A stretch of DNA of 57,217 bases, counting the filler, from Asterionella formosa (lineage: Eukaryota), in assembly GCA_002256025.1 (NCBI GenBank). It is 6 parts of 6 records of this genome, joined end to end, with 100 filler letters (N's around TTAATTAATTAA, not from the genome) between each part and the next. Parts side by side here need not be neighbours in the genome. Positions count along the whole stretch, not along the records: positions 38,227 to 47,672 come from NKIB01010645.1; 5 more parts are not named here. One strand, 5' to 3'. Numbering within the stretch: the stretch's first letter is position 1; the number at the start of each line of letters is the position of its first letter. This document shows, piece by piece, positions 9,468 to 48,592 of the stretch. The notes under the pieces are model-generated. The model had not been told where the DNA came from and ran no database searches. It saw only the letters and a list, made by a program, of their open reading frames with translations. The position numbers were made by a program, and so were the translations under genes.

Positions 9468-9567
9468 NNNNNNNNNNNNNNNNNNNNNNNNNNNNNNNNN
9501 NNNNNNNNNNNTTAATTAATTAANNNNNNNNNNNNNNNNNNNNNNNNNNNNNNNNNNNNNNNNNNNN
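9468..9567. other. Artificial contig spacer (N run with TTAATTAATTAA linker); also at 19024-19123, 28577-28676, 38127-38226, 47673-47772
   Basis: Five identical 100-nt spacers. Contig lengths decrease monotonically (9467, 9456, 9453, 9450, 9446, 9445), consistent with a length-sorted concatenation. Confidence 0.98.
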
Positions 9568-14249: not shown

Positions 14250-15400
14250 GCTGAATGATGATGTGATTTGCAAGAGTTGTGTAAATGCACCATATGTCAA
14301 AGAATATTGTAAACAAACAGTACAAGACTTAGTGCCTATCACATTAGCATAAATAAGAAATGTGAATCCTTCTTGGAAAAAGCGTTTCTATCCACGGAAA
14401 TCCCATGCATCCCGCAACCATTGATCGTTGTGTCCTCTGAGAACTTAGGGTTGGCAAGCGAAATACAAATCACCTGTCCGACCTGTCAGAAAATGATAGC
14501 TAAACTTGAATCTGCAAGAAGCGATAACACCAAAGACAATGGTGAGATAACAAATAAGGAAATTGAAGCAAAACACTTTTCAATCAACCAACAGATTATT
14601 TTGGGTGGTCATGAGGCGGGATTGGGACCTGGCGATGCAGACTTCATTTGTTCTGCAATGAACTTACCGATTCCAGTTGGGTACTGGTCAAGGCAAGGAA
14701 ACTTCTGTGCTGTTGAGGAGCTTGTTGGGAAAGCCCAACTGGAAACAACAGCTCTTGCAATGCAAGAGGCATGTGATGCAGAAATATACAAGACGCTCAA
14801 TGTGCATGAGTGAGTCGATTGGGCAGACAAAGTACGTGATTTCCAGTATTTGAAGTCACTATCTGGTACTGAAAGTATGGCTGTGCAGAATATGCCACGC
14901 CTGACATTTAGTTACAATATGGGCTGGCAGTAGCGATGAAGTGGAAATAAGAACAACTTGCTCGCTCCGTAAGCGGTCATGCATTCTCCATCAGTGGCTA
15001 GTACACACCAAGAAAGATACTAAACTATCGAGTAAAATCAAAGGTCTGTAAATTGTGCGACAGGGCTATACGGTACAAGAAGCAAACCTATCAAGCATCA
15101 TGCTTTCTCCAAGAATCATGTAACTGGAAGATCGAAGGCAATGGAACCAGATGCGGGTGTGGAACAAATGATGGTTGATACCAGTATAAATACAATGTTA
15201 TCTACTCTACAATCATCTGTGATGATGATTCTAAAATTTGAGCTGTGTCGAAATGGTCCTAAATGATTTATTGAATCTACAGTCTGTATTTGAATGGCCA
15301 AGAACATTAAAGGGGCAAAACCGACAAAGGTTGCCTTCCGCTACATGTCCCAGGACCGCGATTCCTTTCTGATCCATCACACCAGCGTCTGCTAATAGAA
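14250..15400 (+). mobile_element. Decayed Kolobok/'Mutator-like' DDE transposase pseudogene
   Basis: Frameshifted segments GLASEIQITCPTC, INQQIILG...GLG....MNLP, LTFSYNMGWQ*R (D1 region), SGHAF, KILNYRVKSKVCKLC, GRSKAMEP, TIICDDDS (D2), FLSDPSH. Confidence 0.8.
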
Positions 15401-18295: not shown

Positions 18296-19391
18296 ACTAA
18301 GCATAGACTGCGCCAGTTTTTCTGAAGTACAATATACACAAATTTAGTACAAAATGAATGTTGGCGAGGAGGACCCCCGTCCACACCAGTTTTCTTCATG
18401 AAAAACAACTACTGCTGGAATGAAGGAACAAAATATCACATTCATGGTAAAATGAAATTGTTGTTATTGTTGTCGTTTTTGTCGTCTTTTCTGCTATCAT
18501 GCTTGTGTTCTCGTTGTCTTTATCGCTGTCACAGTTGTTTCTTCTGTAATTTTTCTTGTCCTTATTCTATTGTAATTTCGTTGTGGTTACTGTGGCTTTA
18601 TACCCTTCTCTTCCTTGGTGTTCCTCGCCCTGCGTTTGAACTTGGACATGCATTGTTTGATATGGAATGTAAAAAAGTCTTGTTTGTTAAAATCCAGCCA
18701 TCATCTGACTCTGTGAATCTTGTTCTTCGCTTCCAGATAACAAGGACTCTGTTGTGGGCCGGTTCCTCTGCATCTACAACGCCGATTATTGGTACAACCG
18801 CCACAAAAAAAACGCTAGTCAAATGTGATCACCCAAATTAATTATTTGGGTGGCCTACTATGAAAAATTGGGCTACGTACATAATTTAAGGGTATGAAAC
18901 CAAATATAAATGTGATGCATCATATAATATATATGATAGGATTGAACTAAAATAGTTTCGACAACTTCCATAAATTTTTATAAACCCACATAAATTTTGA
19001 GGCAAAGTAACAATATTTTTGTANNNNNNNNNNNNNNNNNNNNNNNNNNNNNNNNNNNNNNNNNNNNTTAATTAATTAANNNNNNNNNNNNNNNNNNNNN
19101 NNNNNNNNNNNNNNNNNNNNNNNATCATGAAAGGAGAAGCAGCGCACTCTGTCCATTAAATGTTCTAAAATGGATTTTTTGTACACGCGATTTTATTACA
19201 AAAAATTGACTCTTTAGACTCCTATTCCATTGACGATGTTTCCGTGATTACTGATTCTGATTCCGACATTTTGGAGAACGTTGAAAAGGCCGATATTGTC
19301 GAATTTTTGGACAACATTAGCTCAAGATTGGCAGTGTTTGAAGAAGTGTTAAGTACATAGCTAATCTTCATATAGCCCCAGAATATAACTT

Positions 19392-21634: not shown

Positions 21635-24600
21635 TTACATTGATTCGGCAAGCTTTAATCCACATGTACATCCCAACATCTTGCATCCACAGTTTGTATC
21701 TGCCCCATTCGTTATTCCGGAAGCGAGGGTTTCATCTTCAAACAATGGCTCCATCGCCCGACGACTCCTCAGACGAATTGGTTTCACCTTTTCGACTACT
21801 GAAGTGTTACTCTCAAAATCAACATTTGGTGTAAGTACCATTGGAACCACAGAGGATTGCCAAATGTTCATCTGTTCTTCTTCTTCGTCGTCATCGTCTT
21901 CTCCATCATACTCCTGTTCCTCATTACGCTTTTTGTAGATGAATCGCATGGTACCAAAAGAGGCAACCAAAACGAAAGCACCGCCCACAGATATTGCGAT
22001 CCAGATGTAGATGCTCAAGTTGGCTTGGGAGTTCGATCTGCCAGTGCCTGCAGATCCACCTTCCACAGGTGAATTTTTCGATCCCCCGTCTTCACGCAAT
22101 GTATAGTTTGTTGACTTGACAGTCACCACTTGACTAAATGCAGTGTCTTTGGTCGCCTGAAGCCTTACGACAAGGACAGTCCCATTGTCATCAAAGATGG
22201 TATTGCACATTGCTACTAAATCCAAATCCCCCACTTTTGCATCTCCCCTTACAAGCATACTTATTATAATATCAGTACCCTGAGCTAGTCGTCGTCGAAG
22301 TGTCGACTTTGATAATGATTGATTCAACACTGAAACTTTCACGTGTGAGACAGGAGGTACTTGGAGGCGTAACCAGTTGCCCAAAAAAGCTTCCGTGGTA
22401 TTTCGAAATGTCTCCATAGAGCTGACATCCATTTCATCCACCACATGGGCCATAGTGACAGATACATTGCCTTGTAAAGAATACACTTTGGTCAATGCAG
22501 GTTCAACAGTAAACGCAGATGGGGTGAATGTAGGATAATCAATAGGAGCAGTTGTAGGGCCCACAGATGGGGTGAATGTAGGATAATCAATAGGAGCAGT
22601 TGTAGGGACCACAGATGGGGTCAATGTAGGATAATCAGTATGTGCAGTTGTAGGGCCTTCAGTCGGTTCCAATGTAGGATGTTCAGAAGGAGAAGCTGTG
22701 GGGTCCGCAGTTGGTTGCAACGTAGGTTCCAATGTAGGATTCTCAGTAGGAAGATTTGTGAGTTCCGTGGTCGGTTCCAACGTAGGATACTGTGTAGGAG
22801 AAGCTGTAGGTTCCGCAGTTGGTTCTAACGTAGGTTCCAATGACGGATGCTCAGTAGATGAAGCGGTGGGGACTATAGTCGGGGGTTTTGTAGGATAATC
22901 AGTTGGAGGTGCTGTGGGTTCTGTAGTTGGGGTCATGGTTGGATCAGGAGTAGGAGAAGCAGTGGGTTTATTAGAAGGGGCCAATGTAGGATCAGGAGTA
23001 GGAGAAGCTGAAGTGGGCTTAACTGTCGGTTCAACAGAAGGTGAAGCGCTAGGAGAAGCTGACGGGTCTGCTGTCCTTGTTAACGACTTCAGTGTGATCA
23101 CTTGACTAAAGGAGGTGTTGTTAGTAGCCTGAAGCCGCTCAACAAGGATATATCCCTTGTAGTCAAAAATATTGTTGCACATTGTTGTCAAATCCAAATT
23201 GTCTACTACTGCTTCTCCAGTTACCATCATACTTATTATGATGTCATTGGCCTGCGCTATTCGTCGACGCAGTGTCGACTGAGTTAACAATTGATTCAGC
23301 ACCGTAACTCTTACGTTCGACACCGGAGGCACTTGGAGGCGCAACCAATTTCTCAAAAATGCTTGACTGGTATTGAGAAATGTCTCCGTGAAGCTATCAC
23401 CCAATTCAGCCCCCACGAGGGCCATAATTATTGATACATTGGCTTGTAAAGCATACACTACAGCGTTTGTAGGTGCCGTTGTAGGCGCTGTTGGTATCAA
23501 GACCGTAGGTTCAGGTGTAGGAAAAGCTGTAGGACGTAAAGTGGGAATATATGTAGGTTGCATAGTAGGTGAAGCAGTGGGGTTGGCAGTCGGTTTCAAT
23601 GTAGGAGAATCCGTTGGAGATGCTGTTGGGTCAGCAGTCGGGCTAGACGATGGATAATCAGTAGGAGCAGCTGTTGGGTCGGCAGTAGGGGCCGACGTAG
23701 GATGCATAGTCGGTGAAGCTGTTGGGTGGGCAGTAGGTTCCAACGTCGGATGATCAGTAGGTGAAGCTGTTGGGTGGGCAGTCGGGTTCAACGTAGGATT
23801 ATCAGTAGGAGCAGCTGTTGGGTCGGCAGTAGGGGTCGACGTAGGATGATCAGTAGGAGGGGCTGTCGGCTCCGCAGTCGGTTTCATCGTGGGATGATGA
23901 GTAGGAGAAGCTGTGGGCTCAGTTGTCGGTGCCAACGTCGGATGATCAGTAGGAGATGATGTTGGCTTTTTCGTCGGGGTCGATGTGGGTGCAACAGTTG
24001 GAGAAGCTGTGGGATCCACAGTCGGCTCCAAAGATGGCGCATCGGTAGGAGGACAACTGGGGTCAACAGATGGTGCCGGCGTAGGCTTAAAAGTAGGAGA
24101 AGCCGTAGGTTTAGCAGTAGGTGTCATTATAGGATAATCAGTAGGAGAAGCTGTGGCCACAGTAGTCGGTGCCAACGTCGGATGATCAGTAGGAGATGAC
24201 GTTGGTTCTTTTGTTGGGGTCAATGTTAATATTGATTCTGAAATGGGAGAAGCTGTAGGGTCCAAAATTTTATTTGTCTGAAGTAAGCTGGAATCAGTGG
24301 AGGGGGCCAAACTAAGTTTAGTAGGAGAAGGTGTGGAACTGGGGTCGGTAGATGGGACCACCGTCCACCTAATAGTAGGAGTAGTTGAAGTGTCCTCATT
24401 CGTGGGAAACATAAAATCTGCTCGAGGACCGGTAGTCATCGGTGCAGAAGTCGAGGAGTCTGATGGGCGCTCGTTTGGATTACTAGTCATTGGTGCAGAA
24501 GTCGCGGAGATTGTTGTACTCGCCGACGATGTAAATGGAGGATTGGTTACAGGGACACTAAGAGGGAAAGTAGTTCCAGAAGAAAGAGTGTTGGCCAAAT

Positions 24601-24727
24601 CCAAGATTGAAACAAGAAAAGGCACTTTGACATTCTTTGTTGTTAGCGGTGTTGGGGCTTTACTTGGTTGATACAATGACGCTCGGCAGTTCCCCAAAGA
24701 AAAGAGGAGAACTGCGAACCTTACCAT
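21635..24727 (-). CDS. Mucin-like PT-repeat type I membrane protein with two SEA-like globular domains
   Basis: Signal peptide MVRFAVLLFSLGNCRA, extensive PTxxPT repeats and two homologous ~130-aa domains (NWLRLQVPPVS.V.V.VLNQ...TLRRR.AQ). TM IYIWIAISVGGAFVLVASFG followed by an acidic cytosolic tail. Confidence 0.9.
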   Translation of the reverse strand: MVRFAVLLFSLGNCRASLYQPSKAPTPLTTKNVKVPFLVSILDLANTLSSGTTFPLSVPVTNPPFTSSASTTISATSAPMTSNPNERPSDSSTSAPMTTGPRADFMFPTNEDTSTTPTIRWTVVPSTDPSSTPSPTKLSLAPSTDSSLLQTNKILDPTASPISESILTLTPTKEPTSSPTDHPTLAPTTVATASPTDYPIMTPTAKPTASPTFKPTPAPSVDPSCPPTDAPSLEPTVDPTASPTVAPTSTPTKKPTSSPTDHPTLAPTTEPTASPTHHPTMKPTAEPTAPPTDHPTSTPTADPTAAPTDNPTLNPTAHPTASPTDHPTLEPTAHPTASPTMHPTSAPTADPTAAPTDYPSSSPTADPTASPTDSPTLKPTANPTASPTMQPTYIPTLRPTAFPTPEPTVLIPTAPTTAPTNAVVYALQANVSIIMALVGAELGDSFTETFLNTSQAFLRNWLRLQVPPVSNVRVTVLNQLLTQSTLRRRIAQANDIIISMMVTGEAVVDNLDLTTMCNNIFDYKGYILVERLQATNNTSFSQVITLKSLTRTADPSASPSASPSVEPTVKPTSASPTPDPTLAPSNKPTASPTPDPTMTPTTEPTAPPTDYPTKPPTIVPTASSTEHPSLEPTLEPTAEPTASPTQYPTLEPTTELTNLPTENPTLEPTLQPTADPTASPSEHPTLEPTEGPTTAHTDYPTLTPSVVPTTAPIDYPTFTPSVGPTTAPIDYPTFTPSAFTVEPALTKVYSLQGNVSVTMAHVVDEMDVSSMETFRNTTEAFLGNWLRLQVPPVSHVKVSVLNQSLSKSTLRRRLAQGTDIIISMLVRGDAKVGDLDLVAMCNTIFDDNGTVLVVRLQATKDTAFSQVVTVKSTNYTLREDGGSKNSPVEGGSAGTGRSNSQANLSIYIWIAISVGGAFVLVASFGTMRFIYKKRNEEQEYDGEDDDDEEEEQMNIWQSSVVPMVLTPNVDFESNTSVVEKVKPIRLRSRRAMEPLFEDETLASGITNGADTNCGCKMLGCTCGLKLAESM

Positions 24728-25379
24728 TTCGCGTGTATGGTCACTTATTTAACAGGCGATGATGAGATGGAACTGCTAATATATAAATTGATGATTGTGA
24801 GAATGATGCATTTCACAAAATTGGCTGTTGACGAGCAATCAGTACTCGCCCGTATCCAATGGATAAATTGTATTTGATTGAGCATCGTATTTCTTCTTTC
24901 TTGTAAAATGCCTTGACCTTTTCCTTGGACATTACCGATTACTCTTGCACAAGTGATTATAACAACAAAAATTTTCCAAGCATCGCCGTCTTACCGTAAG
25001 TAATTGCGATTGGGATACTGCACTGCTTTTTGTTTTCTCCCAAAATTCTGCGACGATGGGATTATAGTTTGAGGAATAGAAAGCAATATTTTGAAAATAA
25101 CGATGATTTGTGGACGATACACATATTCTGAAATCATTTCATAATGTGTGACCGATCAGCACGGTCCTCCCATTCCAACGACTTTTATCGCCAAAGCCAA
25201 ACGATACGTACTTCCCGCGACAGGTGCAGTGTTGTACGCAGTTCAAGTACAGTACCAGGTACCAGGTGGTACCGGAAATCATCAAAAATCATTTTGGCCA
25301 GTCGTCGCACTAGATACCAGTACCATGGTACTCCATATATATATTCATGAATATAATTAATGTGTCGGTGACTGGAGTA

Positions 25380-28330: not shown

Positions 28331-28705
28331 ATAGCATGGTTCATCTAAGCCGCGAAATACGCCACTTTTCGAAATTTCGTCTACGTATGAGTGTTAATTA
28401 TGTGGTACTTCACATGCATTAATGCCACTCTTCACGTAAAAAAGATTACTTTTAACGGTTTCATGTGAAGTTTTAACTGTTTCATGTGAAGTTTTCACAA
28501 TGAATTTTGAACGCGAGACTGAATTAGTTGATGTTTCAAATAATTCATTTGAAAGTTCAACTAAGATCCTGCTCTTNNNNNNNNNNNNNNNNNNNNNNNN
28601 NNNNNNNNNNNNNNNNNNNNTTAATTAATTAANNNNNNNNNNNNNNNNNNNNNNNNNNNNNNNNNNNNNNNNNNNNTTGAACATTGTTCATCCTAGTAAG
28701 TCAAC

Positions 28706-29223
28706 ATGAAGCATTTGATAGTCATCCTTCTCCTCCTTCCTTTCGCCGTAAATGGCCGCTCCTTACGTGGAAACTTCCTCGAGCATACCTCCTCTTCAAG
28801 TCGTCAGTTAATGACGGGAGGAGGAGGTGCTGGTCGTGGTCGTGGTCGTGGTTTGGTAAAGGTCGTCAAAACCCCAGCGCCAACCAAGGTCAAAATCCCA
28901 TCGTCAGCCAAGGTCAAGACCCCAGCGCCAACCAAGGTCAAGACCCCAGCGCCAACCAAGGTCAAAATCCCAGCGTCAGCCAAGGTCACCCAGCGCCAAC
29001 CAAGTCCAAGACACCAGCGCCGACCAAATCCAAGACACCAGCGCCGACCAAATCCAAGACACCAGCGCCAACCAACTCCAAGACACCAGCGCCAACCAAA
29101 TCCAAGACACCAGCGCCAAAGAAAACAAAGAAACCAAAGAAACCTACTGCATCGCCCAGCATGCCCTCTTCATCGCCTTCTACAAATGATTTAAATTTGG
29201 AGTCAGCAACTCCTACAGTCTAA
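28706..29223 (+). CDS. Secreted Lys/Pro/Thr-rich protein (KTPAPTKxK repeats), silaffin/cell-wall-like; apparent 4-nt frameshift at ~28988
   Basis: Signal peptide MKHLIVILLLLPFAVNG, RSL and RQL motifs, 24-bp repeats. The repeat register continues in another frame after gtcacccagcg (expected gtcaagaccccagcg). Confidence 0.75.
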
Positions 29224-37994: not shown

Positions 37995-38126
37995 TTGAAC
38001 ATTGTTCATCCTAGTAAGTCAACATGAAGCATTTGATAGTCATCCTTCTCCTCCTTCCTTTCGCCGTAAATGGCCGCTCCTTACGTGGAAACTTCCTCGA
38101 GCATACCTCCTCTTCAAGTCGTCAGT
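37995..38126 (+). repeat. Exact 132-bp copy of contig start 28677-28808 (5' end of the secreted Lys-rich gene; ATG at 38024, partial CDS)
   Basis: ttgaacattgttcatcc...caagtcgtcagt is identical at both ends of contig 4. Confidence 0.97.
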
Positions 38127-38226
38127 NNNNNNNNNNNNNNNNNNNNNNNNNNNNNNNNNNNNNNNNNNNNTTAATTAATTAANNNNNNNNNNNNNNNNNN
38201 NNNNNNNNNNNNNNNNNNNNNNNNNN

Positions 38227-38352
38227 CAGTGTTTCACCCTTACTGCTGCCCAGGCAACACTCCTCCTAGCTGGCTCGCTCTATGTCAACATCCATACTGC
38301 GAAATGCCCCAATGGTGAGATCCGTGGTCAGATCATGCGTGCAGTTGCCTAA
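38227..38352 (+). CDS. CHRD-domain protein, 3' end (5' part beyond contig edge)
   Basis: QCFTLTAAQATLLLAGSLYVNIHTAKCPNGEIRGQIMRAVA* contains the CHRD signature G.LYVN.HT...P.GEIRGQ. Missed by the ORF track. Confidence 0.9.
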   Translation, partial: QCFTLTAAQATLLLAGSLYVNIHTAKCPNGEIRGQIMRAVA

Positions 38353-38699
38353 GAAGACGATACAGTCAATCAATGACGAAATGGCTTTCTTGCACATGAC
38401 GAGTAGTAACAAGACAGGTAGTATGCTGCTTACCTGTCATTACCTGGTGGACTGTCTCAGTACTACAGTAACTAGTTTGGTATTAGTTTAAGTTGTTACT
38501 CAAATTACTTGTTTTGTTACCTTCAGTATCATTGTAAGCATAGCTGCAAATGCAAGCTAAAAGGGAGCTAAAGTATTATTGTTATATTAGCATTATGTCA
38601 TGCATAGCAGTAATTAAATTATTGTATAAACCAAACACAAAGCTAGTTGTCGCCCTTGATTTCGCTCAAGAATATTGCAGCAACTAAGCAAAGCGAGAC

Positions 38700-41600
38700 T
38701 GAGTTTTGGGAAGCTAATAGCTAATGGTACTTCACCCTTTGGGACTGGGCAGGGGAGCGGGGCATCTCCAGCTGTGTGGTTGTCCATCTGCATTACTTTA
38801 CTGTCGCTATGGAAGAGCAATGATCAATCAATAAAGACAATGTCAAATAAGATGAGAAGAAGAGACACAGATCAGGCACACCGTGCGATATGGGTGGCAC
38901 AAATGATGTATTCTCTACCAAGAATCACAAGCATGACATCAGTGCAACTGAAAACCAGACAAAGAAGTGGACACACATGGCGAGTCTTGGAAAAATGGGC
39001 TTTAATAAAAATTTCCCAAAGGCAGTGGTCTACAGCCCAATATCAACAGGGGGACTGAAATTAGTGGATTTAACGATCAAACAAGGGATCAGAGCCACAG
39101 AAAAATTATAATTCCACAAATATGCAAAAGATGAAGTGGCAAAAAAGATGGATATCTCTTTACGAACCAGTCAACTAGAATCTGGCCGAGGAGTACCCTT
39201 ACTCATGCACACAGAGGAGGAAATTCCGTACTCAACCCCAACATGGCTAATGCACATGCTAAAGTTTTGAGGCACAAACAAATTCAAAATCGAGATCAGT
39301 AACAAATGGAGTTCGGAAAGGCAATGTCAAAACGACTTGATGATTATGCAAATCATGGCGGGAAAGGGATTGAGTCAGTCCAGAATTTTTCATATAAATG
39401 CATACAGAATGTACCTACAGGTGACTACAGCAGTGGCGGACAACGCAACAGCAGATGGGCGAAGATTGAGGAAGGAAATCATGAAATGCCATTCAAAGAA
39501 TACCAGGACGGCTTACCAAATGGCAATGGCCAGCCAAACCAACCCAAGCCAACAGAACTGCAACAAAATGAATGGACAACGGCATTCAGACGGTACTTCT
39601 TCACAAATGGCTCAAAGGGAAAACTGATCCTAAGGCAACAATTGGGGCAATGTACTAAAAAACCCTCATAAGAATGGCTCACATAAATCCAACTGAAAGA
39701 ACAACTTCTCTGGGAGTATCAGAAAGAGGAGGTCACATGCATGGACAGTCTACCAAAATGCCACCACAAACTCTCGAACATTTCAATTCAACAAACAAAA
39801 GGGCACAAAATCAAAACTGTTGCCACCACAGGGCAGCATACCATGTGATGTAAACAAACAATGGGGAATAGCATATAGAATGATGGACATCAATGGAGGA
39901 AAAGCTATGACAAGACCTCAGCGCCTCACTTTCTTAAGACAACTGCAAGGGCTACTCAAAAGGAATGTCGTTATGACCAAATCGTCATGAAGTAGACTTT
40001 GTAAACGCCTTCAACTGGGTCTTAACATCCATATAGCGATGGATGGATCAATGGAATCAGACTCAAGGTGCTCGTTTGCGTGGACTCTGCACACAACAGG
40101 AACTAGAAGTTCAATTCCAAGGCAAACAGCAGCCTGCTTGTGGCCAGTCGATGGAAATATCAACCAGGGCGGAGTTGTTTGGAATTGCATCAGCACTGAA
40201 ATTTCTACTGGAATTCATCAAGATAGACACATCTTCAGTGGTAACTATTTGGACATATGCACAGTGCAGCAGCACCAGCTAGAGTTCGGTTCTTGTCATG
40301 GAGCAAACACATGGGATGTCCCCCAGCCAACACAGACATAGTGTAACTTCTAGCGGAATTGATTCACACACTACTTCCAATAGCGGCGAAGGTGAAATGG
40401 ATTAAAGCACACCAAGACCAGGGGGTGGGAAAAGGGAAACTGACAACATCGGGAACATTGAACATAATGTCAGACGCAATGGCCTCCATTTTTCTAGCCA
40501 AGTGCCCCAACACAGCGTCTAGGGGACCAAGAAAAATATCTCCGCATTACCCAACAATGCAAGCTAGCTTAATCATAGCAAAGTCCAGAATCCACACGGG
40601 CACAGCGGCCAAGATGAGAAAGGATATAAAATCTAGAAGGTATTGGGCCTATTTTATAGGAAAATACGACGAAAACAGGGAACAACAAGTGAACTGGGAC
40701 AACCTATCCGCAGCTTCTAGAGAGCAAGCGGGACAAACCCAAACAACAATCACAAAATGCATATATGGGTGGCTCTCAACAGGAGCAAGAAGACAGGTTA
40801 TGCACCAGGGCAGCGACAGCTGCGTTCAAAGCGGGGAGCGGGAAACAAATGAACACATGCACACCTGCAAGCATCCAAAGAGCAAATAAAGCAGAGACAT
40901 ACAAATTTCACAGATGTCACGAACTCTAGCTAGTACAAAGGCGGTCCAAGACGGCTGAGAGAGTTTCCTCCTCCATATGGATGGCATACCTACAACATGT
41001 CATGTCACAAAATCAGATGCGTTTTGTTCCCCAATTCGTCCCGGGTACACTACTTAGAACAAAAAGACACATATGTAAGGCCATTGCCCAACAAAGCAAA
41101 CGCTCTTGGTAATATAATGTCACTAAGGGGTATATGATCAAAGAGTGGAAAACAGTGGTACAAAGCTCAACGCAGGATCCAAGTCCGACAAAACAGATGT
41201 GCAACCTATGGGTGAAAACGGAAATTTCACAACTCTGGAAAGTCAGGGAAGGAGCATGGCAAGAAAGGAACCAATCACTACACAATGGACAGAATAACTT
41301 GATATCACAATCACAATTCCGCAAATGTGGAATACAAAACAGCATACTAAGTTACTACCAATTAAAGTGAACCAGGAATCTACAGGTGAGTCTACCTTGC
41401 GCTCTGGTTAAGGGGTACCTCTTCCCCACCATGGCGGACCCCTTTCCCCCTAAAAATATGACGGTCTCGGAATATATTCTACATGTGGCACCTTCAACGG
41501 CATTTCACGATTTATTGAATGAAGCCGGAACAGAGAAAAACGACTGTACAATGATCGATTTCGAAGCAGAATACACATTCCTGACATCAGAACCTCCGTT

Positions 41601-43400
41601 TAAACCACTCTGCAAAGAAACAAAACAAAAAGAGACGACTCGCAATGCCGGTACTCTCAACAACCACAACGACAAGCTATCACGCAAGACGACTAGTACA
41701 GGAAAGAGAACAATCATCAATACTGCCGCCACATCGTCAGTGAAGGAGCAAACTCAGAACAAAAATCACGAAGATAGGAAATCACATGCAAAAGCTACAG
41801 GAATTAGAGCCATCATCGAAAAAGCCACTCCTGCATCGGTTCATGCGCAAACTCATCACAAAGATCACGACGGCAGGACATCACACAAGCCAACAACAGG
41901 AATAAGAACCATCATTGCTTGGTAACGCCGCCATTCCATTGACGGTAAAAAATTACAAGGAGAACAACAAAAGGACCTCAAAAAAGATAAATATAGGAAT
42001 AGGAACAACCATTATCGATACAGCTGTCGCATTTTTGCCACTGCAAACTTATCACAAACATTACGACAGAAGGCCACCACGCAAGACAGCACCTACAGCT
42101 GGAGGAACCATCATCAACAGCGCCACTGCCTCTATTCAAGCGCAACCCTAATACAAGCATCATGTCAACAGGAAATCAAACAATACAACCAAAGGAATAG
42201 GTACCACTATCAATCACACCGCCACACTGGTTCAGATGCAAGCTCATTGCAAACATCACTACAAATTGACCTCCCATCAGAAAAACACAGGAATAGGAAC
42301 CATCATCGATCATGAAACTGGATCAATCAAGGTGAATAGCTAGCCATCACAAACATCACAACGAAAGACATCACTCCTCAAGACAACAACAGGAATAGGA
42401 ACTATAATTGCGAAAGCTGAACATCACATTGACAAGACATCACGCCATCAGCAGACAAAAACAGGCCACAGCCTTGATAGTGTCACCACCTCTTTTCAAG
42501 CGCATTACATTACCAAAGGACTTCACACCAGACAACTACATGAATAGGAATTATCATCGATAATTTCGCTGCGTCATTGTTAGAACAACAACATCACAAT
42601 AACAAAAGAACAACATACAAGATAACCATAGGAATGCTAGGAAGTAGAGCTGTTATTGTCACCATGCAGATTCAAGCAAAAATCATGATATCAAAAGGAA
42701 ACCCAGCAAGATCAAAACAGGAATAGGAACAATAGGAATGCCCAATTCAAGCACCAAGTAAGTCAAAGATTCGCGGTTCTTCAGAATCACACAAATGAGT
42801 GTACAAACCAACAAAGACTGCACTGCAGTACGTGAGACCCTCTTGAAATTAAATGGAATGGACAAAAGGGTATGTGAGGCCCTCCTGAAATTGAATGGAA
42901 TGGACAAAAGAGTGCATTATTGTCCCCCCTAAGATTTATCAATTTCCCCAGTGTCTATCCAGGCGCAAGTGCGATTATTACTTAAGTTTTAACGTACTCT
43001 AAAATTTTATTTTCCCCCCCCTAACTTGATATCACAATTAGAATACAATGAAAAAATTTAAAAACTGTATCAACACAAAGGGGAAATCTCGAGTAGAGAT
43101 GAGCACCTTTTTGGTAATCCTCTCGAAAATCTACTAAAATCAAGATTGGGAGAAAAGACCAGATTTTTGGAAAGAGCCAAACACTTATTCGCAGATTCAA
43201 AAGCATGGGCAGAGAAAGGTCAAAAATCAATAAGCTCTCACTATCAGCAAATATCTCCAGTAACGACACAAACCAAGAAACAGCAACAAGAAGTGGGAAA
43301 ATACAGAAAACCATTCACCAAATCAACACTCACCATGCAATTCTCAGGCTGACATGAATAGTGCAGTCAAAGGGAACCGATTCAAGATCAAAGCTACCAC
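38700..43400 (+). mobile_element. Decayed non-LTR retrotransposon (RT + RNase H; Ambal-like), interrupted at 41312-43021
   Basis: RT motif GTGQGSGASPAVW; MGFNKNFPKAVVYSP..TGGL; RNase H motifs DGS, STRAELFG, VKWIKAHQD, LNIMSDAMA. W..RN..LH C-terminus resumes at 43039 (RDEHLFGNPLE). Confidence 0.85.
41312..43021 (+). mobile_element. 1.71-kb insertion with 17-bp TSD carrying a decayed ORF with ~33-aa repeats and an oligo-C end
   Basis: TAACTTGATATCACAAT at 41295-41311 and 43022-43038. ORF from ccaccATGG (41431). Anchor acaggaataggaaccatcatc at 41698, 41797, 41896 and onward to ~42720. Ends ttttattttcccccccc. Confidence 0.8.
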
Positions 43401-44789
43401 AATTTTTTTACTCCTACTTCTTCAAGAGGAAGTGACTACCGGTACCCACCAAACATTCCACCGCCCCACAGTACAAGGGCCATGGAACGCAATGAAGACA
43501 AACCTAGAAATCGACTAGTAAAAATGCGCTATAAAAATGATTTGTATATATACTATTATATGTATGATAAATACAAACTTTAAGTATGATGATTTCAAGC
43601 ATACTTCAGACTTACTCCGATTTTACATTTCCTCACACGTCGGCTATTTTCCATTGGTCCTACCGAAATTTTACAATTCATTTGCTACCATAATCAGTAA
43701 TAATCATAGTTACAATGAGAAGCAGCGAACTTTTAATTATGTATTGCTTGTTTCCATCGTCAAAACAAACGCTTCCAATTCTAGATTAACTTATATTGCT
43801 GTGCGTAGCTATTTTCGAAAATATCTGAATAATGATCTGTCAGTCGAATTTCGCATTAGTAAAAATCAATATTTGATTAAATGCTTCTGTTTATAGCTTA
43901 CAAATGCCGTTTCATTTCCATTATCCTGAATGAAGCAACACGCATGTCTCAATTATGTTCTATCAGTTGTGAGTTGATCCATTTTGTCTAGTTGTCAACG
44001 AAAACACTTACCATCGCACTGTTTTATACTATATCAGTGGCTGCTTTTCCATTGAATGCTAGAGGATCTATTGAATCACTTGAGAAGAAATAATTAATTT
44101 AGTCTTTGTCCACTGAACAAGTGATAGTCCTGAGGACCTTTGCCCTTGATGTACATAGCTAGATTCCGTTCGCTTTTCCTTTTTTAATCCAGCTATCATT
44201 GTGTCATAGTATCATCACTTCAGTTTTCCTTGTCGTGTAACTGATGTGATCTTTTATTTCAGGAAGTGTATGCATGAAAAGGGACATATAAACATGATTT
44301 CAAATGTATCAGCCATGAATACATTTATAAAATTTGAAATATATATATATACTTAAACATTTTCATGGTTTAAAGAAAAGAATCTGCATATTGCACATCA
44401 TGTGTATACTATCATCACATAACTTTTTTTACAATTCAAAAGTATACAAGCAATGCATGGTGATTTCATTGTTTTCCAAGACCTGATGTTCTGTTTTTGA
44501 ATTATTTCAATATCAATTCTTGTACCTGGAACAAGTCAGTGATTTAAATAAACCCCTTAATTGGCGGGAGTCATAAACGAATTTTCATAGACTCTAGGAA
44601 AGGCATGGCTTGCTTACAGCCAGTGTACTTGGTATTTACTTGTATCATGGGATTACAGTGATAGTACAGATGAGCGGAAAACTGAAAATCATTCATTTAG
44701 GATCAATTGATTGTACTTGTATAATCAATTTTTAATAATGCTTAGAGTCTATTTTGATCTTTCATTTTCTCATATTAACAACACGCACT

Positions 44790-45473
44790 GGGGGAATAGC
44801 CCAACTTTAGTTGAAAGTGGCAACAACCCCGGTTCAATTTTTCCGGTCACTACATGACTTATGGAATCAATGTCCAGGCTGTTTGTGATGCTGACTCACG
44901 ATTTATTTGTTTTTGTGTGATTTTAACGGGAAGTTTCTGAACGGACTTTCATTTTCGATCGAGTTGCAGCATTCAATACAGGTTTTTATCTGGTCAGCGA
45001 TGCAGCATACACATTGTCTGATGTAAAGCGTTTTCCCTTTGTTGGCTGACAACCTGATGATCTGACACAGGATACATTTAATTGTCTCATTTCATAGCTG
45101 AGGAGAAGAATAGAAATGGCATGTGGTCTTCTTCAGACAAAATGGTGTGTTCTGATAAAAATACCTATCGACAAGCTTGAAAATATCTGCACACATTCTT
45201 GATTCATGTGCTCGACTTCACAATTATCTGATTAATAACAAATTAATTGATAAGATTTTGGATTATAATCAAATGCTTACAGAGATAATTCCAGTCAGTT
45301 TGTCACCCCTTGGTTGGGGCTACTTACCGACTGTGGAACCGTTGTGTATATTACCTGGAAGCTCTGTGATGCAACATGTGATTCTTACCAGATTGCGAAC
45401 CTTGGGCTTGCAACAAACTCCTGTCAATATAGAGAGGAGAAGGAAAGAATTACATGAAATAAATAGAATGTAA
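44790..45473 (+). mobile_element. PIF/Harbinger (DDE_Tnp_4, HARBI1-like) transposase remnant
   Basis: YGINVQAVCDADSRF, GFYLVSDAAY, LRRRIEMACGLLQTKW, CARLHNY, with stops and frameshifts. Confidence 0.88.
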
Positions 45474-45549
45474 AAACCTTCTGAAAGTAGATGAAAATAG
45501 TGATCCCGCTTTCTCTTGCATAACTTAATTCTAACCGAACCTGAACTAT

Positions 45550-46500
45550 ATCAGAATTTTCGGAGTCATAGCCACAATCTTCCAACCTTTCCAAATCCTT
45601 CCGAGCAATCTTGAGACGACTTTAATAGAGATCCAGAACATCTAGGATCTCTTTTTCGCGTCTTCATGCTGCTGAAGACTGAAGCACTTGAAGTTTCATT
45701 GCATTGACACTCTAGTCTAATACATTTGCCATTTGTAGCATAGAAGACGAGGAATGATAGGATGAAGGAGATGAGCATTTTCGTTTCTTGAGCAAACAGT
45801 CTTCGATGATAAGGACAATGATTGAGCGCTATCAGTACTTTCACAGAATGATGATGTTGGAAGCAATGGAACAGGCCAGCAAAATTGAGAAGGTGAGGAA
45901 CTTGGCACAACCATAACTGGTAGTAATATATATAAGGTAGTCTACTGGGCGCTATGCACCCTGGTGCAACCCAAAGAACTCCACAATAGTTGAGGATCAT
46001 AAATGCATACTTTAAAATTTTATTACCAACTATGTAAGGTTGGCTTCCATCAAAGTTAACAAAGTTATCATGACTTCCTGACTTTTGGTTATTCCTGTAC
46101 GAAATTTGGTAATGATAGTTAATGTACCCCTTTGCCGCAGAAAATTCGACAGAGGACAGAGCATCATATCTCTTTGGGTAACAACTGTCTATCCCCATTT
46201 GCTCCCAATAAGGATCTTGTGAAAAAAAAGAACATTGCTGTCATCATTGTCACCATCAAGGAAGGTAGGTATGGGTCTATCGAAAATGTATATATGCCTG
46301 AAGTTTCTTGTGTCCAGTTCAGCCATACTTGGAGGCTGACCAAGTATCAAAACATCGCTCCTGTGTTGCTCACACATGTAAAAGTAGATGACACAAAAAT
46401 ATGTGTTGGCAGAAGTGACACTGCATGGAGGAATTGATTTTGATATGTTAGCATTTTTCTTTTTTGTTGCCTTCATTGCAACAGGAGGAAGAGGCAATTA
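45550..46500 (-). pseudogene. Probable decayed second (accessory) ORF of the Harbinger element, convergent with the transposase
   Basis: Fragmentary frames (KSGSHDNFVNF.G..PY; YYYQLWL..PHLLNFA; coiled-coil-like end). The position matches the two-gene PIF/Harbinger layout. Confidence 0.45.
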
Positions 46501-46624
46501 TAGTATGTAAATTAAGAACAAAACCAGGGTCTTTGTCTGCTTCATATGGCTTCTCTTTCTGTGAATCAGAGTCCATATCAACATTGCCATGACTCTTTTC
46601 TTCATCTTCAATAATAGATTAATC

Positions 46625-46692
46625 ATTATTGTTGCTGTTGTTGTGGATGTTGATGTTGTGGATGTTGAAGTTGAAGTTGAAGTTGATGTTGA

Positions 46693-46726
<34 letters not shown>

Positions 46727-46915
46727 ATGGATGATGTTGTTGTGGATTTCTTTGTAGATGTTGTTGTGAATATTTTTATGGATGTTGCTGTTATGGATGT
46801 GGATGTGGATGTCAATTTGGATGTCAATGTTGATGTCGATGTGGAAGTCGATGTCGATGTGAATGTCGATAAGGATGTCGATGTGGATGTCGATGACGAT
46901 GTGGATGTGGATTGT
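46625..46915. repeat. Low-complexity (GATGTT/GATGTG/GTT)n microsatellite
   Basis: Directly visible hexamer and trimer runs. Confidence 0.95.
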
Positions 46916-46936
46916 CAGAAAAATATCATTTTCGTT

Positions 46937-47263
46937 TCCATCCCCAGCGAATCTGGTACAATTACCAGCCTTCGCTACCTATTTTTGAGTGACAATAGAT
47001 TGACTGGAACTTTCCCTTCACAGTTGGGTAACTTGCCAAACTTACAAGTCATCACTCTTCAATCGAATTATTTGGTCGGTGAAATTCCTACAGAATTGGG
47101 AAAATTGGCATCCTTGGAGAATCTTAACTTGTCTGGCAATGTTGACCTTAAAGGAAATATTCCCGACTCCCTTTGTGGTTTACGTAAGAATGGATCATTG
47201 TTGACATTTATTGCTAATTGTGGCACCTGTGAGGTACCCACATGTTGCAGTCAATGCGCTTAG
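46937..47263 (+). pseudogene. C-terminal fragment of an LRR (plant-RLK-type LxxLxLxxNxLxGxIP) protein with Cys cap
   Basis: Three LRRs followed by LC...NC..C...CCSQC. There is no plausible native 5' part; the upstream in-frame sequence is microsatellite. Confidence 0.8.
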
Positions 47264-47546
47264 CATAGTGTTCAACTGGGAGTCAGATGATCGAGGGACA
47301 TCTATACTACTATATACGTGGTGCATTTGAAGTTTTAGAATTTAATGAATAAATATTGATAACGAATCAAACAGGTGTGTATATGATAAATAGGGGATAG
47401 ATAAATTTAGAATTAGCATTGGAAAGCAAGGGTATGACATTCCCATATGAAAGTTCCGAAATCTATGCTGGCCTCATAACTACTATTTGAGAACGAGCGA
47501 GGGATTTCCTCATCCTTCATCTCATGAAACATTTTGTCCTTGTCGC

Positions 47547-47672
47547 TTAGACAACTGCACGCATGATCTGACCACGGATCTCACCATTGGGGCATTTCGC
47601 AGTATGGATGTTGACATAGAGCGAGCCAGCTAGGAGGAGTGTTGCCTGGGCAGCAGTAAGGGTGAAACACTG
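47547..47672 (-). CDS. CHRD-domain protein, 3' end (second, inverted copy)
   Basis: Reverse complement of 38227-38352 except the last sense codon (…RAVV* vs …RAVA*). Confidence 0.9.
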   Translation of the reverse strand, partial: QCFTLTAAQATLLLAGSLYVNIHTAKCPNGEIRGQIMRAVV

Positions 47673-48592
47673 NNNNNNNNNNNNNNNNNNNNNNNNNNNN
47701 NNNNNNNNNNNNNNNNTTAATTAATTAANNNNNNNNNNNNNNNNNNNNNNNNNNNNNNNNNNNNNNNNNNNNTTTTATATTTTATCATATATATTTTATT
47801 AGTCTATCCTCTGTGTGGACATATGCACCGGTAGACATTGCTTGTTTTTGAGTGTATGATATGGCGCGCCATATTGCGGTCTGGAGCTCGTAAAATGTTG
47901 TTGGTACCGGAGTACGTCGGAACAAAATTTACTCTACATTATCATACCGTATATGTATGACATGTATGAAAGTCGCTCATGCGTCCTTCTTGCTGTCGTT
48001 GGCTGACCGACACACCGGTTTCTATACCAGGTCCCTGTTACCCCTGGTAGCAGATGATATATCATGCCAGCACGATCATGATACCTGAAAAAGTTGCAGC
48101 AACTTTGCTATACTAAAGATTTAGCTATTTTTATCCCAGATTATTGTTGATTTAAGCAAAATGATCTCAATCTGCTGGTAGGTAGCATGTGCTACGGGTC
48201 CCAGAGTAACAGATACTGGTACCAGGGTACCAGCAATATCCTGAACGCCCACGGTGATGGTGTGGTGGAATAACAAGAACGACACAGTAACGGCGGCGCG
48301 ATTACAAGCAAGGTACCGGTAGCAGTGACCCAATTAACTGGTAGTACCAGGTACCAGGTGCCAACGGCAGTTCTTGTTCGTCTTCTACTTCGACTTGGTC
48401 TGCTCCCAGGTAGAACTGCTGTTTGATCTCTGCATGCCGGTATTAACCTTGTTGGTCCTTTGAGTTACTTGAGTTACTTGTCGTTTAGCAGTACACTGAT
48501 GCATAACAAAATAGAAAGACAGAGAGAGGAGAAAGAGAGAGAAAGCGAGAAAAAAACGAGAACAAGCCAGCCTATAATTGGTACCGGTAGTC

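What the first reader, a model, noticed from the sequence alone, without database searches (positions are those of the whole stretch)
41295..43038. RT-less 1.7-kb insertion with 17-bp TSD, oligo-C end and its own ORF, nested in a LINE
Seen: TAACTTGATATCACAAT flanks 41312-43021. Removing the insert restores the LINE frame (…LHNGQNNLISQ|LEYNEKI*KLYQ…RDEHLFGNPLE). The insert has no RT or transposase motifs, has an ORF in strong start context (ccaccATGG; MADPFPPK…) and ends in a T-rich run plus C8 rather than poly-A. Inference: an unclassified non-autonomous retroposon or retrogene with a C-rich end, or a G-rich 5' end if it is antisense.
Basis: partly seen in the sequence, partly recalled or inferred. 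Interest (0 to 1): 0.75.

Follow-up and report, generated by a model that had tools for sequence, protein, structure and literature searches.

The report
Retroposon-like insert in dead diatom LINE
A 1.7-kb piece of DNA without enzyme genes really did jump into an old, broken retroelement of a freshwater diatom, most likely copied in from RNA by a borrowed reverse transcriptase, and it belongs to a small family of decayed copies; this is ordinary transposon biology with an odd C-rich tail.

Summary
An exact 17-bp duplication flanks a 1710-bp insert (41312-43021). Removing the insert and one repeat restores the host reading frame. Contigs from independent public runs bridge both junctions. Other copies of the host repeat lack the insert, and one contig skips exactly 1727 bases (1710+17). 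So it is a true insertion, not a misassembly and not part of the host.

The insert has no RT, transposase, terminal inverted repeat, LTR, tRNA or Rfam match. It is laid out like an mRNA: a 119-nt leader, a 164-codon ORF, about ten decayed 99-bp repeats and a 3' region ending in a T-rich run plus C8, with no poly(A).

It is one of a small family. One transcribed copy about 93% alike exists in the same organism. One RNA contig shares the 5' boundary but has a different flank. Eight clusters of relatives in public data all carry short, broken ORFs, and their non-coding leader is as conserved as the ORF.

Best reading (0.55): a non-autonomous, LINE-dependent retroposon in sense orientation, inserted by target-primed reverse transcription. 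Not settled: the orientation, whether C8 is templated, the partner LINE, and whether the host is formally a LINE. No whole genome was available. Modest interest.

The parts
41295..41311 (.). left copy of the 17-bp target-site duplication TAACTTGATATCACAAT
   Evidence: exact
41312..43021 (+). the 1710-bp insert (retroposon-like element; sense strand probably +)
   Evidence: + strand is 38% A and 20% T, like the host's sense strand
41312..41430 (+). 5' leader, with a terminal hairpin AUUCCGC/GUGGAAU at 41316-41333; conserved in relatives
   Evidence: relatives P0004, P0005 and P0011 read through it. The similarity reaches 41316 by alignment and about 41313 by my reading of the letters
41431..41925 (+). 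ORF of 164 codons (MADPFPPK...IIAW*), basic (pI 9.1), no confident fold; cut short by a small indel compared with relatives
41698..42736 (+). about ten decayed units of roughly 99 bp (33 codons, core ACAGGAATAGGAACCATCAT); the first three lie inside the ORF, the rest are out of frame
42828..42911 (+). 42-bp tandem duplication (two copies, 88-90% alike) in the 3' region
42900..43013 (+). 3' region that folds better than shuffles on the + strand only, ending in a T-rich run
   Evidence: z -2.76, 1 of 200 shuffles as good; minus strand z +0.84
43014..43021 (+). C8 run at the right end of the insert
43022..43038 (.). right copy of the 17-bp target-site duplication
38629..41311 (+). host repeat, left part: decayed, frame-shifted retroelement with RT-like and RNase H-like motif remnants (probable 5'-truncated LINE)
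43039..43542 (+). host repeat, right part, ending about 43542 without poly(A); other copies run into different sequence after this point

Best explanation
The insert is one copy of a small, unclassified family of non-autonomous retroposons of a freshwater diatom. Its RNA (sense = + strand) has a conserved leader, a relic ORF with 33-codon repeats and a structured 3' region. An enzyme from an unidentified LINE copied that RNA into a dead, 5'-truncated LINE-like repeat by target-primed reverse transcription. Two nicks 17 bp apart produced the duplication. Reverse transcription began at the element's own 3' end (T-rich run plus C8) and not on a poly(A) tail. That is 'stringent' 3'-end recognition, as in LINEs and SINEs that end in something other than poly(A). 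Shown: the insertion event, the duplication, the absence of enzyme genes, the existence of further copies, and RNA contigs of this copy and of another copy in poly(A) RNA libraries. Inferred: the RNA intermediate, the orientation, the role of the 3' end, and the source of the enzyme.
For: (1) Insertion with a long duplication: an exact 17-bp repeat and a restored frame. One X5 contig skips 1727 bases, which is 1710+17 (depth 757, shorter side 55 letters). A second insert-free host form, with 8 other letters at the site, appears in X5 and in X1 (sides 34 and 39). P0021, another host copy, starts MMKKKKKLYQHKGE, which agrees with that second form. From general knowledge, a duplication of 17 bp fits LINE-type or Penelope-type insertion, not LTR elements or known DNA transposons. 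Duplication by staggered nicks is described in the passages read of PMC2881922. (2) No enzyme and no other class marks: Pfam none, Rfam none at E up to 1, no tRNA, no terminal inverted repeat. (3) Family: a copy about 93% alike is present in DNA (X5 record 14, X1 record 5) and in poly(A) RNA (X6 record 22, depth 247, against 98 for the window's own form). RNA contig X6 record 21 matches 41315-41394 (6 differences) and is preceded by 67 unlike letters, so it has the same 5' boundary but another flank. Two X1 contigs begin to match at 42985 after unrelated sequence, so the last 37 bases occur in other contexts. (4) Relatives decay like repeats: the exhaustive protein search gave 10 hits. I take 8 as true relatives, all 139 aa or shorter, with one cluster member of 189 aa. 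The leader is as conserved as the ORF: P0005 15/18 against 28/38 identical, P0018 15/18 against 31/38, P0011 13/15 against 109/162. Differences between the window copy and the 93% copy include indels of 1, 2 and 4 bases. (5) Sense orientation: the ORF family lies on the + strand. A distant relative (P0010; locus L001) is alike only at the protein level, since blastn of L001 against the insert found nothing meaningful. The + strand is A-rich like the host's sense strand. The 3' 122 nt fold better than shuffles on the + strand only. (6) The host repeat also ends without poly(A), so ends without a tail are not odd in this genome. LINEs that end in TAA or TGTAA repeats, and stringent 3' recognition through a stem-loop, are described in the passages read of PMC3747384.
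Against: No complete second copy with its own duplication was seen, because no genome is held and no DNA of close relatives could be fetched. The insert's 3' region shows no similarity to the host's 3' end (119 of 300 shuffles score as well), so no partner LINE is identified. All read evidence comes from contigs. Summed contig depth is not copy number, so the apparent excess of both termini is only a hint. The fold signal comes from one sequence, without covariation. The hexamer CACAAT stands twice in tandem at the left junction (end of the duplication, then start of the insert). C8 would be easy to explain as untemplated addition at a 5' junction. Both points suit the opposite orientation. 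The mRNA-like layout and a more strongly represented paralogue also fit a retrocopied gene.
Confidence: 0.55

Rival explanations
1. Processed retrocopy (retropseudogene) of a cellular diatom gene. The more strongly represented copy, about 93% alike, would be the parent or a sister retrocopy. The family would be a gene family plus a few retrocopies, not a self-propagating retroposon.
For: The insert has an mRNA-like layout of leader, ORF in a good start context and a 3' region. A second copy has a deeper contig in poly(A) RNA than this one (X6 record 22, depth 247 against 98). A distant relative (P0010, locus L001) is alike only at the protein level and lacks the repeats, which suggests the ORF once came from a real protein.
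Against: There is no poly(A) tail. No intact long ORF exists in 1.84 billion representatives. All 8 relatives I accept are broken at different places. The non-coding leader is as conserved as the ORF. The RNA contig of the other copy carries 67 unlike letters upstream of the shared boundary, so that boundary is not simply a transcription start. The ORF has no confident fold (mean pLDDT 53, pTM 0.14) and no atlas hit.
Confidence: 0.2
2. Same kind of event, opposite orientation. The RNA was the minus strand, with its 3' end at the left (...GGAAUUGUG). It was primed on the target's ...CACAAT-3' by short-repeat pairing or slippage. C8 on the + strand is then untemplated C added to the cDNA at the RNA's 5' end before the jump to the target.
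For: CACAAT occurs twice in tandem at the left junction. A second copy also reads ...AAT|AATTCC at its boundary (my reading of the loose end). A hairpin sits right at that terminus. Untemplated nucleotides at the template jump are mentioned in the passages read of PMC2881922. LINE tails made of short repeats with template slippage are mentioned in PMC3747384. Two copies share the left boundary.
Against: The conserved ORF and leader are on the + strand. The + strand is A-rich like the host's sense strand. The right-hand 122 nt fold well on the + strand only, and the left-hand 119 nt fold worse than shuffles on the minus strand (z +1.85). Two contigs carry only the right-most 37 bases in other contexts. 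That pattern is expected for a 3' end (5' truncation or a shared tail), not for a 5' end.
Confidence: 0.15
3. DNA-level insertion: an unclassified DNA transposon without inverted repeats, or a stray DNA or cDNA fragment captured during repair of a staggered break.
For: No RNA-specific mark such as poly(A) or a lost intron is present. No partner RT was found.
Against: There is no transposase, inverted repeat or hairpin end typical of any DNA transposon class. From general knowledge, a 17-bp duplication is longer than those of known DNA transposon superfamilies. The defined boundary shared with another copy argues against random fragment capture.
Confidence: 0.07
4. Not an insertion: a misassembly at the 17-mer, or an integral part of the host element.
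For: The window comes from a fragmented assembly whose pieces show 127-132-bp end overlaps typical of graph assembly.
Against: Runs from different studies bridge both junctions without differences (X1 and X7). Host copies without the insert exist. The 17-mer is far shorter than the apparent assembly word length.
Confidence: 0.01

Closest known systems
Non-autonomous retroposons mobilised by 'stringent-type' LINEs (SINE/LINE pairs such as UnaSINE1/UnaL2; tails other than poly(A))
   Same: No enzyme genes, a variable-type long target duplication, no poly(A), a structured 3' region ahead of a short simple tail, and several decayed copies. The concept is from the passages read of PMC3747384.
   Different: At 1.7 kb it is far longer than a SINE. 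It has no pol III head and carries an mRNA-like ORF. No LINE with the same tail was found (for the host family; others could not be searched). An oligo-C tail is not among the tails named in the passages read (TAA, TGTAA, poly(A)).
Processed pseudogenes / retrogenes made by L1-type LINEs
   Same: An intron-free layout of leader, ORF and 3' region flanked by a duplication of LINE-typical length.
   Different: There is no poly(A) tail and no intact parent is detectable. The family members are broken in different places, and the leader is as conserved as the ORF.
ORF1-only or internally deleted LINE derivatives (HAL1, RIME/NARTc type; recalled, not tested)
   Same: A retroposon of kilobase size with a leader, one small basic ORF and LINE-type ends but no RT.
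   Different: No autonomous relative sharing the ends or the ORF was found. The ORF has no known ORF1 domain and no confident fold.
Non-LTR elements reported in diatoms (RTE-like family of Thalassiosira pseudonana, as cited in PMC2806351)
   Same: This shows that diatoms carry non-LTR elements that could supply the enzyme (one passage read).
   Different: The host repeat here has RNase H-like remnants, which RTE elements lack (recalled). No relation to that family was tested.

Membership tests
LINE-dependent non-autonomous retroposon | Flanked by a target-site duplication of variable, often long, size; the empty site is known | tested here: met
   17-bp exact duplication. An insert-free host form skips exactly 1727 bases. 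The frame is restored.
LINE-dependent non-autonomous retroposon | Encodes no reverse transcriptase or endonuclease | tested here: met
   Pfam found none for 3 frames of the insert. The exhaustive search found no relative longer than 189 aa that I accept.
LINE-dependent non-autonomous retroposon | Several copies with the same termini, different flanks and different duplications | tested here: inconclusive
   One RNA contig has the same 5' boundary and another flank. Two contigs carry the last 37 bases in other contexts. One copy is about 93% alike. No complete second copy was seen, and no genome is held.
LINE-dependent non-autonomous retroposon | 3' tail shared with, or recognised by, a partner LINE | tested here: not met
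   No similarity to the 3' end of the only LINE-like family at hand, the host. Other LINEs of the genome could not be searched.
SINE | Pol III head derived from tRNA, 7SL or 5S; length under about 700 bp | tested here: not met
   No Rfam match at E up to 1, no tRNA, length 1710 bp.
Processed pseudogene / retrogene (L1 type) | Poly(A) tail at the 3' end | tested here: not met
   It ends in TTTTATTTT + C8.
Processed pseudogene / retrogene (L1 type) | An intact, usually intron-bearing parent gene exists | tested here: inconclusive
   No intact long relative among 1.84 billion representatives. The genome itself could not be searched.
DNA transposon (TIR classes) | Terminal inverted repeats and/or transposase; short duplication of fixed length | tested here: not met
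   No terminal inverted repeat, no transposase, and the duplication is 17 bp.
LTR retrotransposon / solo LTR | TG...CA ends and a 4-6 bp duplication | tested here: not met
   The ends are CACAAT... and ...CCCCCCCC, with a 17-bp duplication.
Penelope-like element / retrozyme | Hammerhead ribozyme in the repeat ends; GIY-YIG/RT gene in autonomous forms | tested here: not met
   No Rfam family, hammerheads included, at E up to 1 in 40800-43700. No RT.
Host repeat = non-LTR retrotransposon (LINE) | RT domain recognisable by profile | tested here: not met
   Pfam found none at E up to 0.1 for 10 host frames from the repeat itself, and PDB sequence searches found nothing relevant. Only motif remnants (FGTGQGSGASPAVW, GGLKLVDL) by my own reading.
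Host repeat = non-LTR retrotransposon (LINE) | RNase H and Cys/His region downstream of the RT, and no LTRs or integrase | tested here: inconclusive
   Atlas feature hits to RNase_H/zf-RVT clusters at 0.90-0.92, a lead only. No long direct repeats flank it in the piece. The 'longer' protein search found nothing.
Host repeat = non-LTR retrotransposon (LINE) | Many 5'-truncated copies with a common 3' end | tested here: inconclusive
   Summed contig depth rises toward 43381-43674, and copies diverge after 43542. However, summed contig depth is not copy number.

The most novel reading that the evidence does not exclude
Diatoms harbour a so far undescribed class of kilobase-sized, mRNA-like retroposons. 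Their RNA would be reverse-transcribed from a structured 3' end carrying an oligo(C) tail in place of poly(A). That implies a diatom LINE enzyme which starts on a C run, or adds a G run to the nicked target before copying. It would also be the first LINE-dependent non-autonomous family characterised in diatoms.
Probability: 0.2. Interest if true: 0.55.

Novelty: new member of a known kind. Interest (0 to 1): 0.3.

Why it matters
Transposon biology in diatoms is known mostly from LTR elements and DNA transposons. A documented insertion with a 17-bp duplication, an empty site and further copies shows that LINE-type machinery has acted on other RNAs in a freshwater diatom. It also offers a handle for finding the responsible LINE and its 3'-end rule: the 37-base tail and the C run. 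Three full-text searches returned no paper describing a non-autonomous retroposon in diatoms. The library is incomplete, so this is weak evidence of absence. The practical value is for annotation. The ORF should not be called a gene, and the element should be added to diatom repeat libraries.

Tried and rejected
- Other copies in the window: none.
- Earlier scan notes by sequence, for the insert and for the host 3' part: nothing. By words: nothing useful on LINEs.
- DNA of relatives: the metagenome scan gave a single 1147-bp low-coverage contig (L001). It is a distant relative of the ORF start, joined to unrelated sequence that looks bacterial to me (not searched), so it is probably chimeric and useless for boundaries.
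- Prokaryote contigs and viral contigs: no hit with the protein profile or with terminal DNA patterns.
- Host identity: Pfam, the 'longer' protein search and three PDB sequence searches gave no RT or RNase H hit.
- Internal motif: TTATTGTCCCCCCTAAGATT... at 42917 resembles the terminus plus target. The match is weak: 22 of 1000 shuffles reach it, and it beats the next window hit by only 29 to 27. I do not rely on it.
- Host duplication: a 7-bp TTGTATA lies at 38622 and 43542 but is one of five chance-level 7-mers.
- Other C/G runs in the window (30065, 37432): unrelated contexts.
- Continuation of the host after 43542: none elsewhere in the window.
- Parts without RNA cover: X6 has no contig beyond 42491, X7 none beyond 42940, and neither has any on 43087-44400, although the DNA runs cover that stretch deeply. 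This would fit a plus-strand transcript end inside the insert and argue against DNA carry-over. But the two runs stop at different places, and missing contig cover proves nothing, so it stays here.
- Summed contig depth (both termini higher than the middle): not used as copy number.
- A 23-bp duplication with two mismatches (D11): rejected, because by my reading of the letters two other family copies share the bases 41313-41317.
- Structure of the ORF: no confident fold, so no fold search was run.
Full report
SETTING. No genome is held for this window. Earlier notes of this scan describe the genome as a diatom; I did not test this. Public runs that hold the insert are freshwater, lake and 'algae' metagenomes and metatranscriptomes. 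Of 24 rows listed, 20 hold part of the insert, 10 hold half or more of its sampled words, and 5 are on record as RNA; the holders come from 11 studies. The 57-kb window is not one stretch of chromosome. It is six pieces of about 9.45 kb joined by N44-TTAATTAATTAA-N44 spacers. The finding lies in the piece 38227-47672. That piece has 127-bp inverted identical ends that encode the end of a CHRD-domain protein. Its other content is the host repeat, an AT-rich spacer and an LRR gene.

OBSERVATION.
- The 17-mer is exact at 41295-41311 and 43022-43038.
- The insert is 1710 bp (41312-43021).
- Deleting the insert plus one repeat gives the continuous frame ...NNLISQLEYNEKI*KLYQHKGEISSRDEHLFGNPLE....
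- The ORF starts in the context ccaccATGG.
- The right end is TTTTATTTT followed by C8.

A 17-mer pair at this spacing is one of 24 in the window, so the repeat alone would not prove a duplication. The next section supplies the proof.

A REAL INSERTION. I laid contigs of two DNA runs (X5, X1) and two poly(A) RNA runs (X6, X7) from three studies on 40000-44400 at 90% likeness.
- The left junction is bridged by X1 record 3 (41276-42046, no differences) and X7 record 28 (41186-41466).
- The right junction is bridged by X1 record 7 (42934-43089, one gap).
- Two insert-free forms exist. One X5 contig joins 41312 to 43040, skipping 1727 = 1710+17 bases (depth 757, shorter side 55). Another form joins 41317 to 43051 with 8 other letters between, in X5 (side 34) and X1 (side 39).
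- These come from other, slightly diverged copies of the host repeat, not from an empty allele. The exact-match flank contigs have the same depth as the insert contigs (about 780-910 in X5), not twice that.
- P0021, a public protein 90% identical to the host frame right of the insert, begins MMKKKKKLYQHKGE, which matches the second form.

WHAT THE INSERT HOLDS. It gave no Pfam family, no Rfam family at E up to 1, no tRNA and no terminal inverted repeat. No other copy lies in the window. From left to right it contains:
- a 119-nt leader with a hairpin at 41316-41333;
- an ORF of 164 codons, basic (pI 9.1);
- about ten units of roughly 99 bp, with a core like ACAGGAATAGGAACCATCAT. The first three lie in the ORF and the rest are out of frame;
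- a 42-bp tandem duplication;
- a 3' region ending in a T-rich run and C8.

The + strand is 38% A and 20% T. The host repeat's sense strand is 36% and 20%. An ordinary gene in another piece of the window is 25% and 29%. The ORF has no confident fold (mean pLDDT 53, pTM 0.14) and no atlas hit (recognition 1566).

A FAMILY OF DECAYED COPIES. The word-index search found one relative (P0001, 65% identity). The exhaustive search of 1.84 billion representatives found 10 proteins at E up to 0.001.
- I set aside two (P0006, 454 aa, and P0009, 344 aa) as unrelated repeat proteins that match the repeat part weakly.
- The other eight clusters hold 18 member sequences, from ENA, JGI and Logan assemblies. 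All are short: at most 139 aa for the representatives and 189 aa for one member. They stop at different places.
- Several read straight through what is the leader in the window. The leader is as conserved as the ORF: P0005 15/18 against 28/38 identical residues, P0018 15/18 against 31/38, P0011 13/15 against 109/162.
- In the same organism, a copy about 93% alike is present in DNA and in RNA. It differs by indels of 1, 2 and 4 bases, so that part is under no coding constraint.
- One RNA contig (X6 record 21) matches 41315-41394 and carries 67 unlike letters upstream. P0004 matches from 41316. By my reading of the letters, the three copies agree back to about 41313. The left end of the insert is therefore a family boundary.
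- Two X1 contigs start to match at 42985 after sequences unrelated to each other. Their agreement of 0.63 is what chance gives for two sequences. So the last 37 bases of the insert occur elsewhere without the rest.

I could not obtain a complete second copy. All attempts to fetch relatives' DNA failed or gave only a distant, probably chimeric contig.

MECHANISM. From general knowledge, a long duplication of no fixed length, no enzyme genes, no inverted repeats, and a defined end shared by copies point to target-primed reverse transcription by a LINE enzyme acting in trans. The scheme of staggered nicks and duplication is in the passages read of PMC2881922. The missing poly(A) argues against L1-style copying of an ordinary mRNA. 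It fits 'stringent' recognition of a specific 3' end, as reviewed in the passages read of PMC3747384. Those passages name LINE tails of TAA or TGTAA repeats and 3' stem-loops.

Four observations fit that model. The last 122 nt fold better than shuffles on the + strand only (z -2.76, 1 of 200; minus strand z +0.84). The terminal 37 bases recur in other contexts. The host repeat itself ends without poly(A). T. pseudonana is reported to carry RTE-like non-LTR elements (one passage of PMC2806351). The partner is not the host family, since the two 3' ends show no similarity.

WHAT STAYS OPEN.
1. Orientation. CACAAT stands twice in tandem at the left junction. C8 could be untemplated C added to a cDNA at the RNA's 5' end. 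Both would suit a minus-strand RNA. I put that at about 0.15 because the ORF, the leader, the base skew, the fold and the 37-base tail all point the other way.
2. Whether C8 is templated. One bridging contig has a single-base gap somewhere in 42934-43089, but I cannot place the gap in the C run. An internal motif resembling the terminus is not significant.
3. Retroposon family or a few retrocopies of a gene. Broken relatives everywhere and the conserved leader favour the former.
4. The host's class. No profile or PDB match names an RT or RNase H. The LINE label rests on motif remnants that I read, an atlas lead to RNase_H/zf-RVT clusters at 0.90-0.92, the lack of flanking long repeats, and copies that diverge after 43542.

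VERDICT. This is a genuine nested insertion of a new, small family of enzyme-less, RNA-like elements in a freshwater diatom. It is most likely LINE-mobilised, with an unusual tail that is not poly(A). It is a sound annotation result of modest interest. The C-rich end is the only feature that could make it more than a new member of a known kind, and settling that needs the whole genome.

Noticed in passing
window 9468-9567, 19024-19123, 28577-28676, 38127-38226, 47673-47772: The window is six separate pieces of about 9.45 kb joined by N44-TTAATTAATTAA-N44 spacers. Features on different pieces are not neighbours in the genome.
   Followed up: yes
window 38227-38353 and 47546-47672: The piece holding the finding has 127-bp inverted, 99% identical ends that encode the C-terminal end of a CHRD-domain protein (Pfam PF07452, E 9e-12). 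This is either two inverted paralogues or an assembly-graph effect at a word length of about 127.
   Followed up: partly
window 28677-28808 and 37995-38126: The preceding piece starts and ends with the same 132 bp (100% identical), which include the start of a small secreted Pro/Lys-rich repeat protein. This could be a circular or tandem assembly overlap.
   Followed up: partly
window 41306-41317: CACAAT stands twice in tandem: once as the last six bases of the duplication and once as the first six of the insert. Other host copies read CAGAAT or CACAAT where this copy's right side reads TAGAAT. Its meaning for the joining step is unexplained.
   Followed up: partly
window 43530-43542: The host repeat ends ...TATAAAAATGATT without poly(A). 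Contigs of other copies continue with different sequences after 43542. A 7-bp TTGTATA lies at both presumed ends (38622, 43542), but at chance level.
   Followed up: partly
window 14313-14810: A Mutator-like transposase fragment (Pfam PF20700, E 7e-7) lies on another piece. Earlier notes of this scan describe split Mutator transposases in this genome.
   Followed up: no
window 44263-44400: An AT-rich stretch (TATATATA...) has very high summed contig depth in the DNA runs (about 320,000 in X5), which suggests a very abundant simple or dispersed repeat.
   Followed up: no
window 21638-24748 (minus strand): A 1037-aa ORF carries long PT-rich repeats (Pfam PT, E 1.5e-41) and a C-terminal membrane anchor-like segment. 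It is probably a mucin-like surface protein.
   Followed up: no
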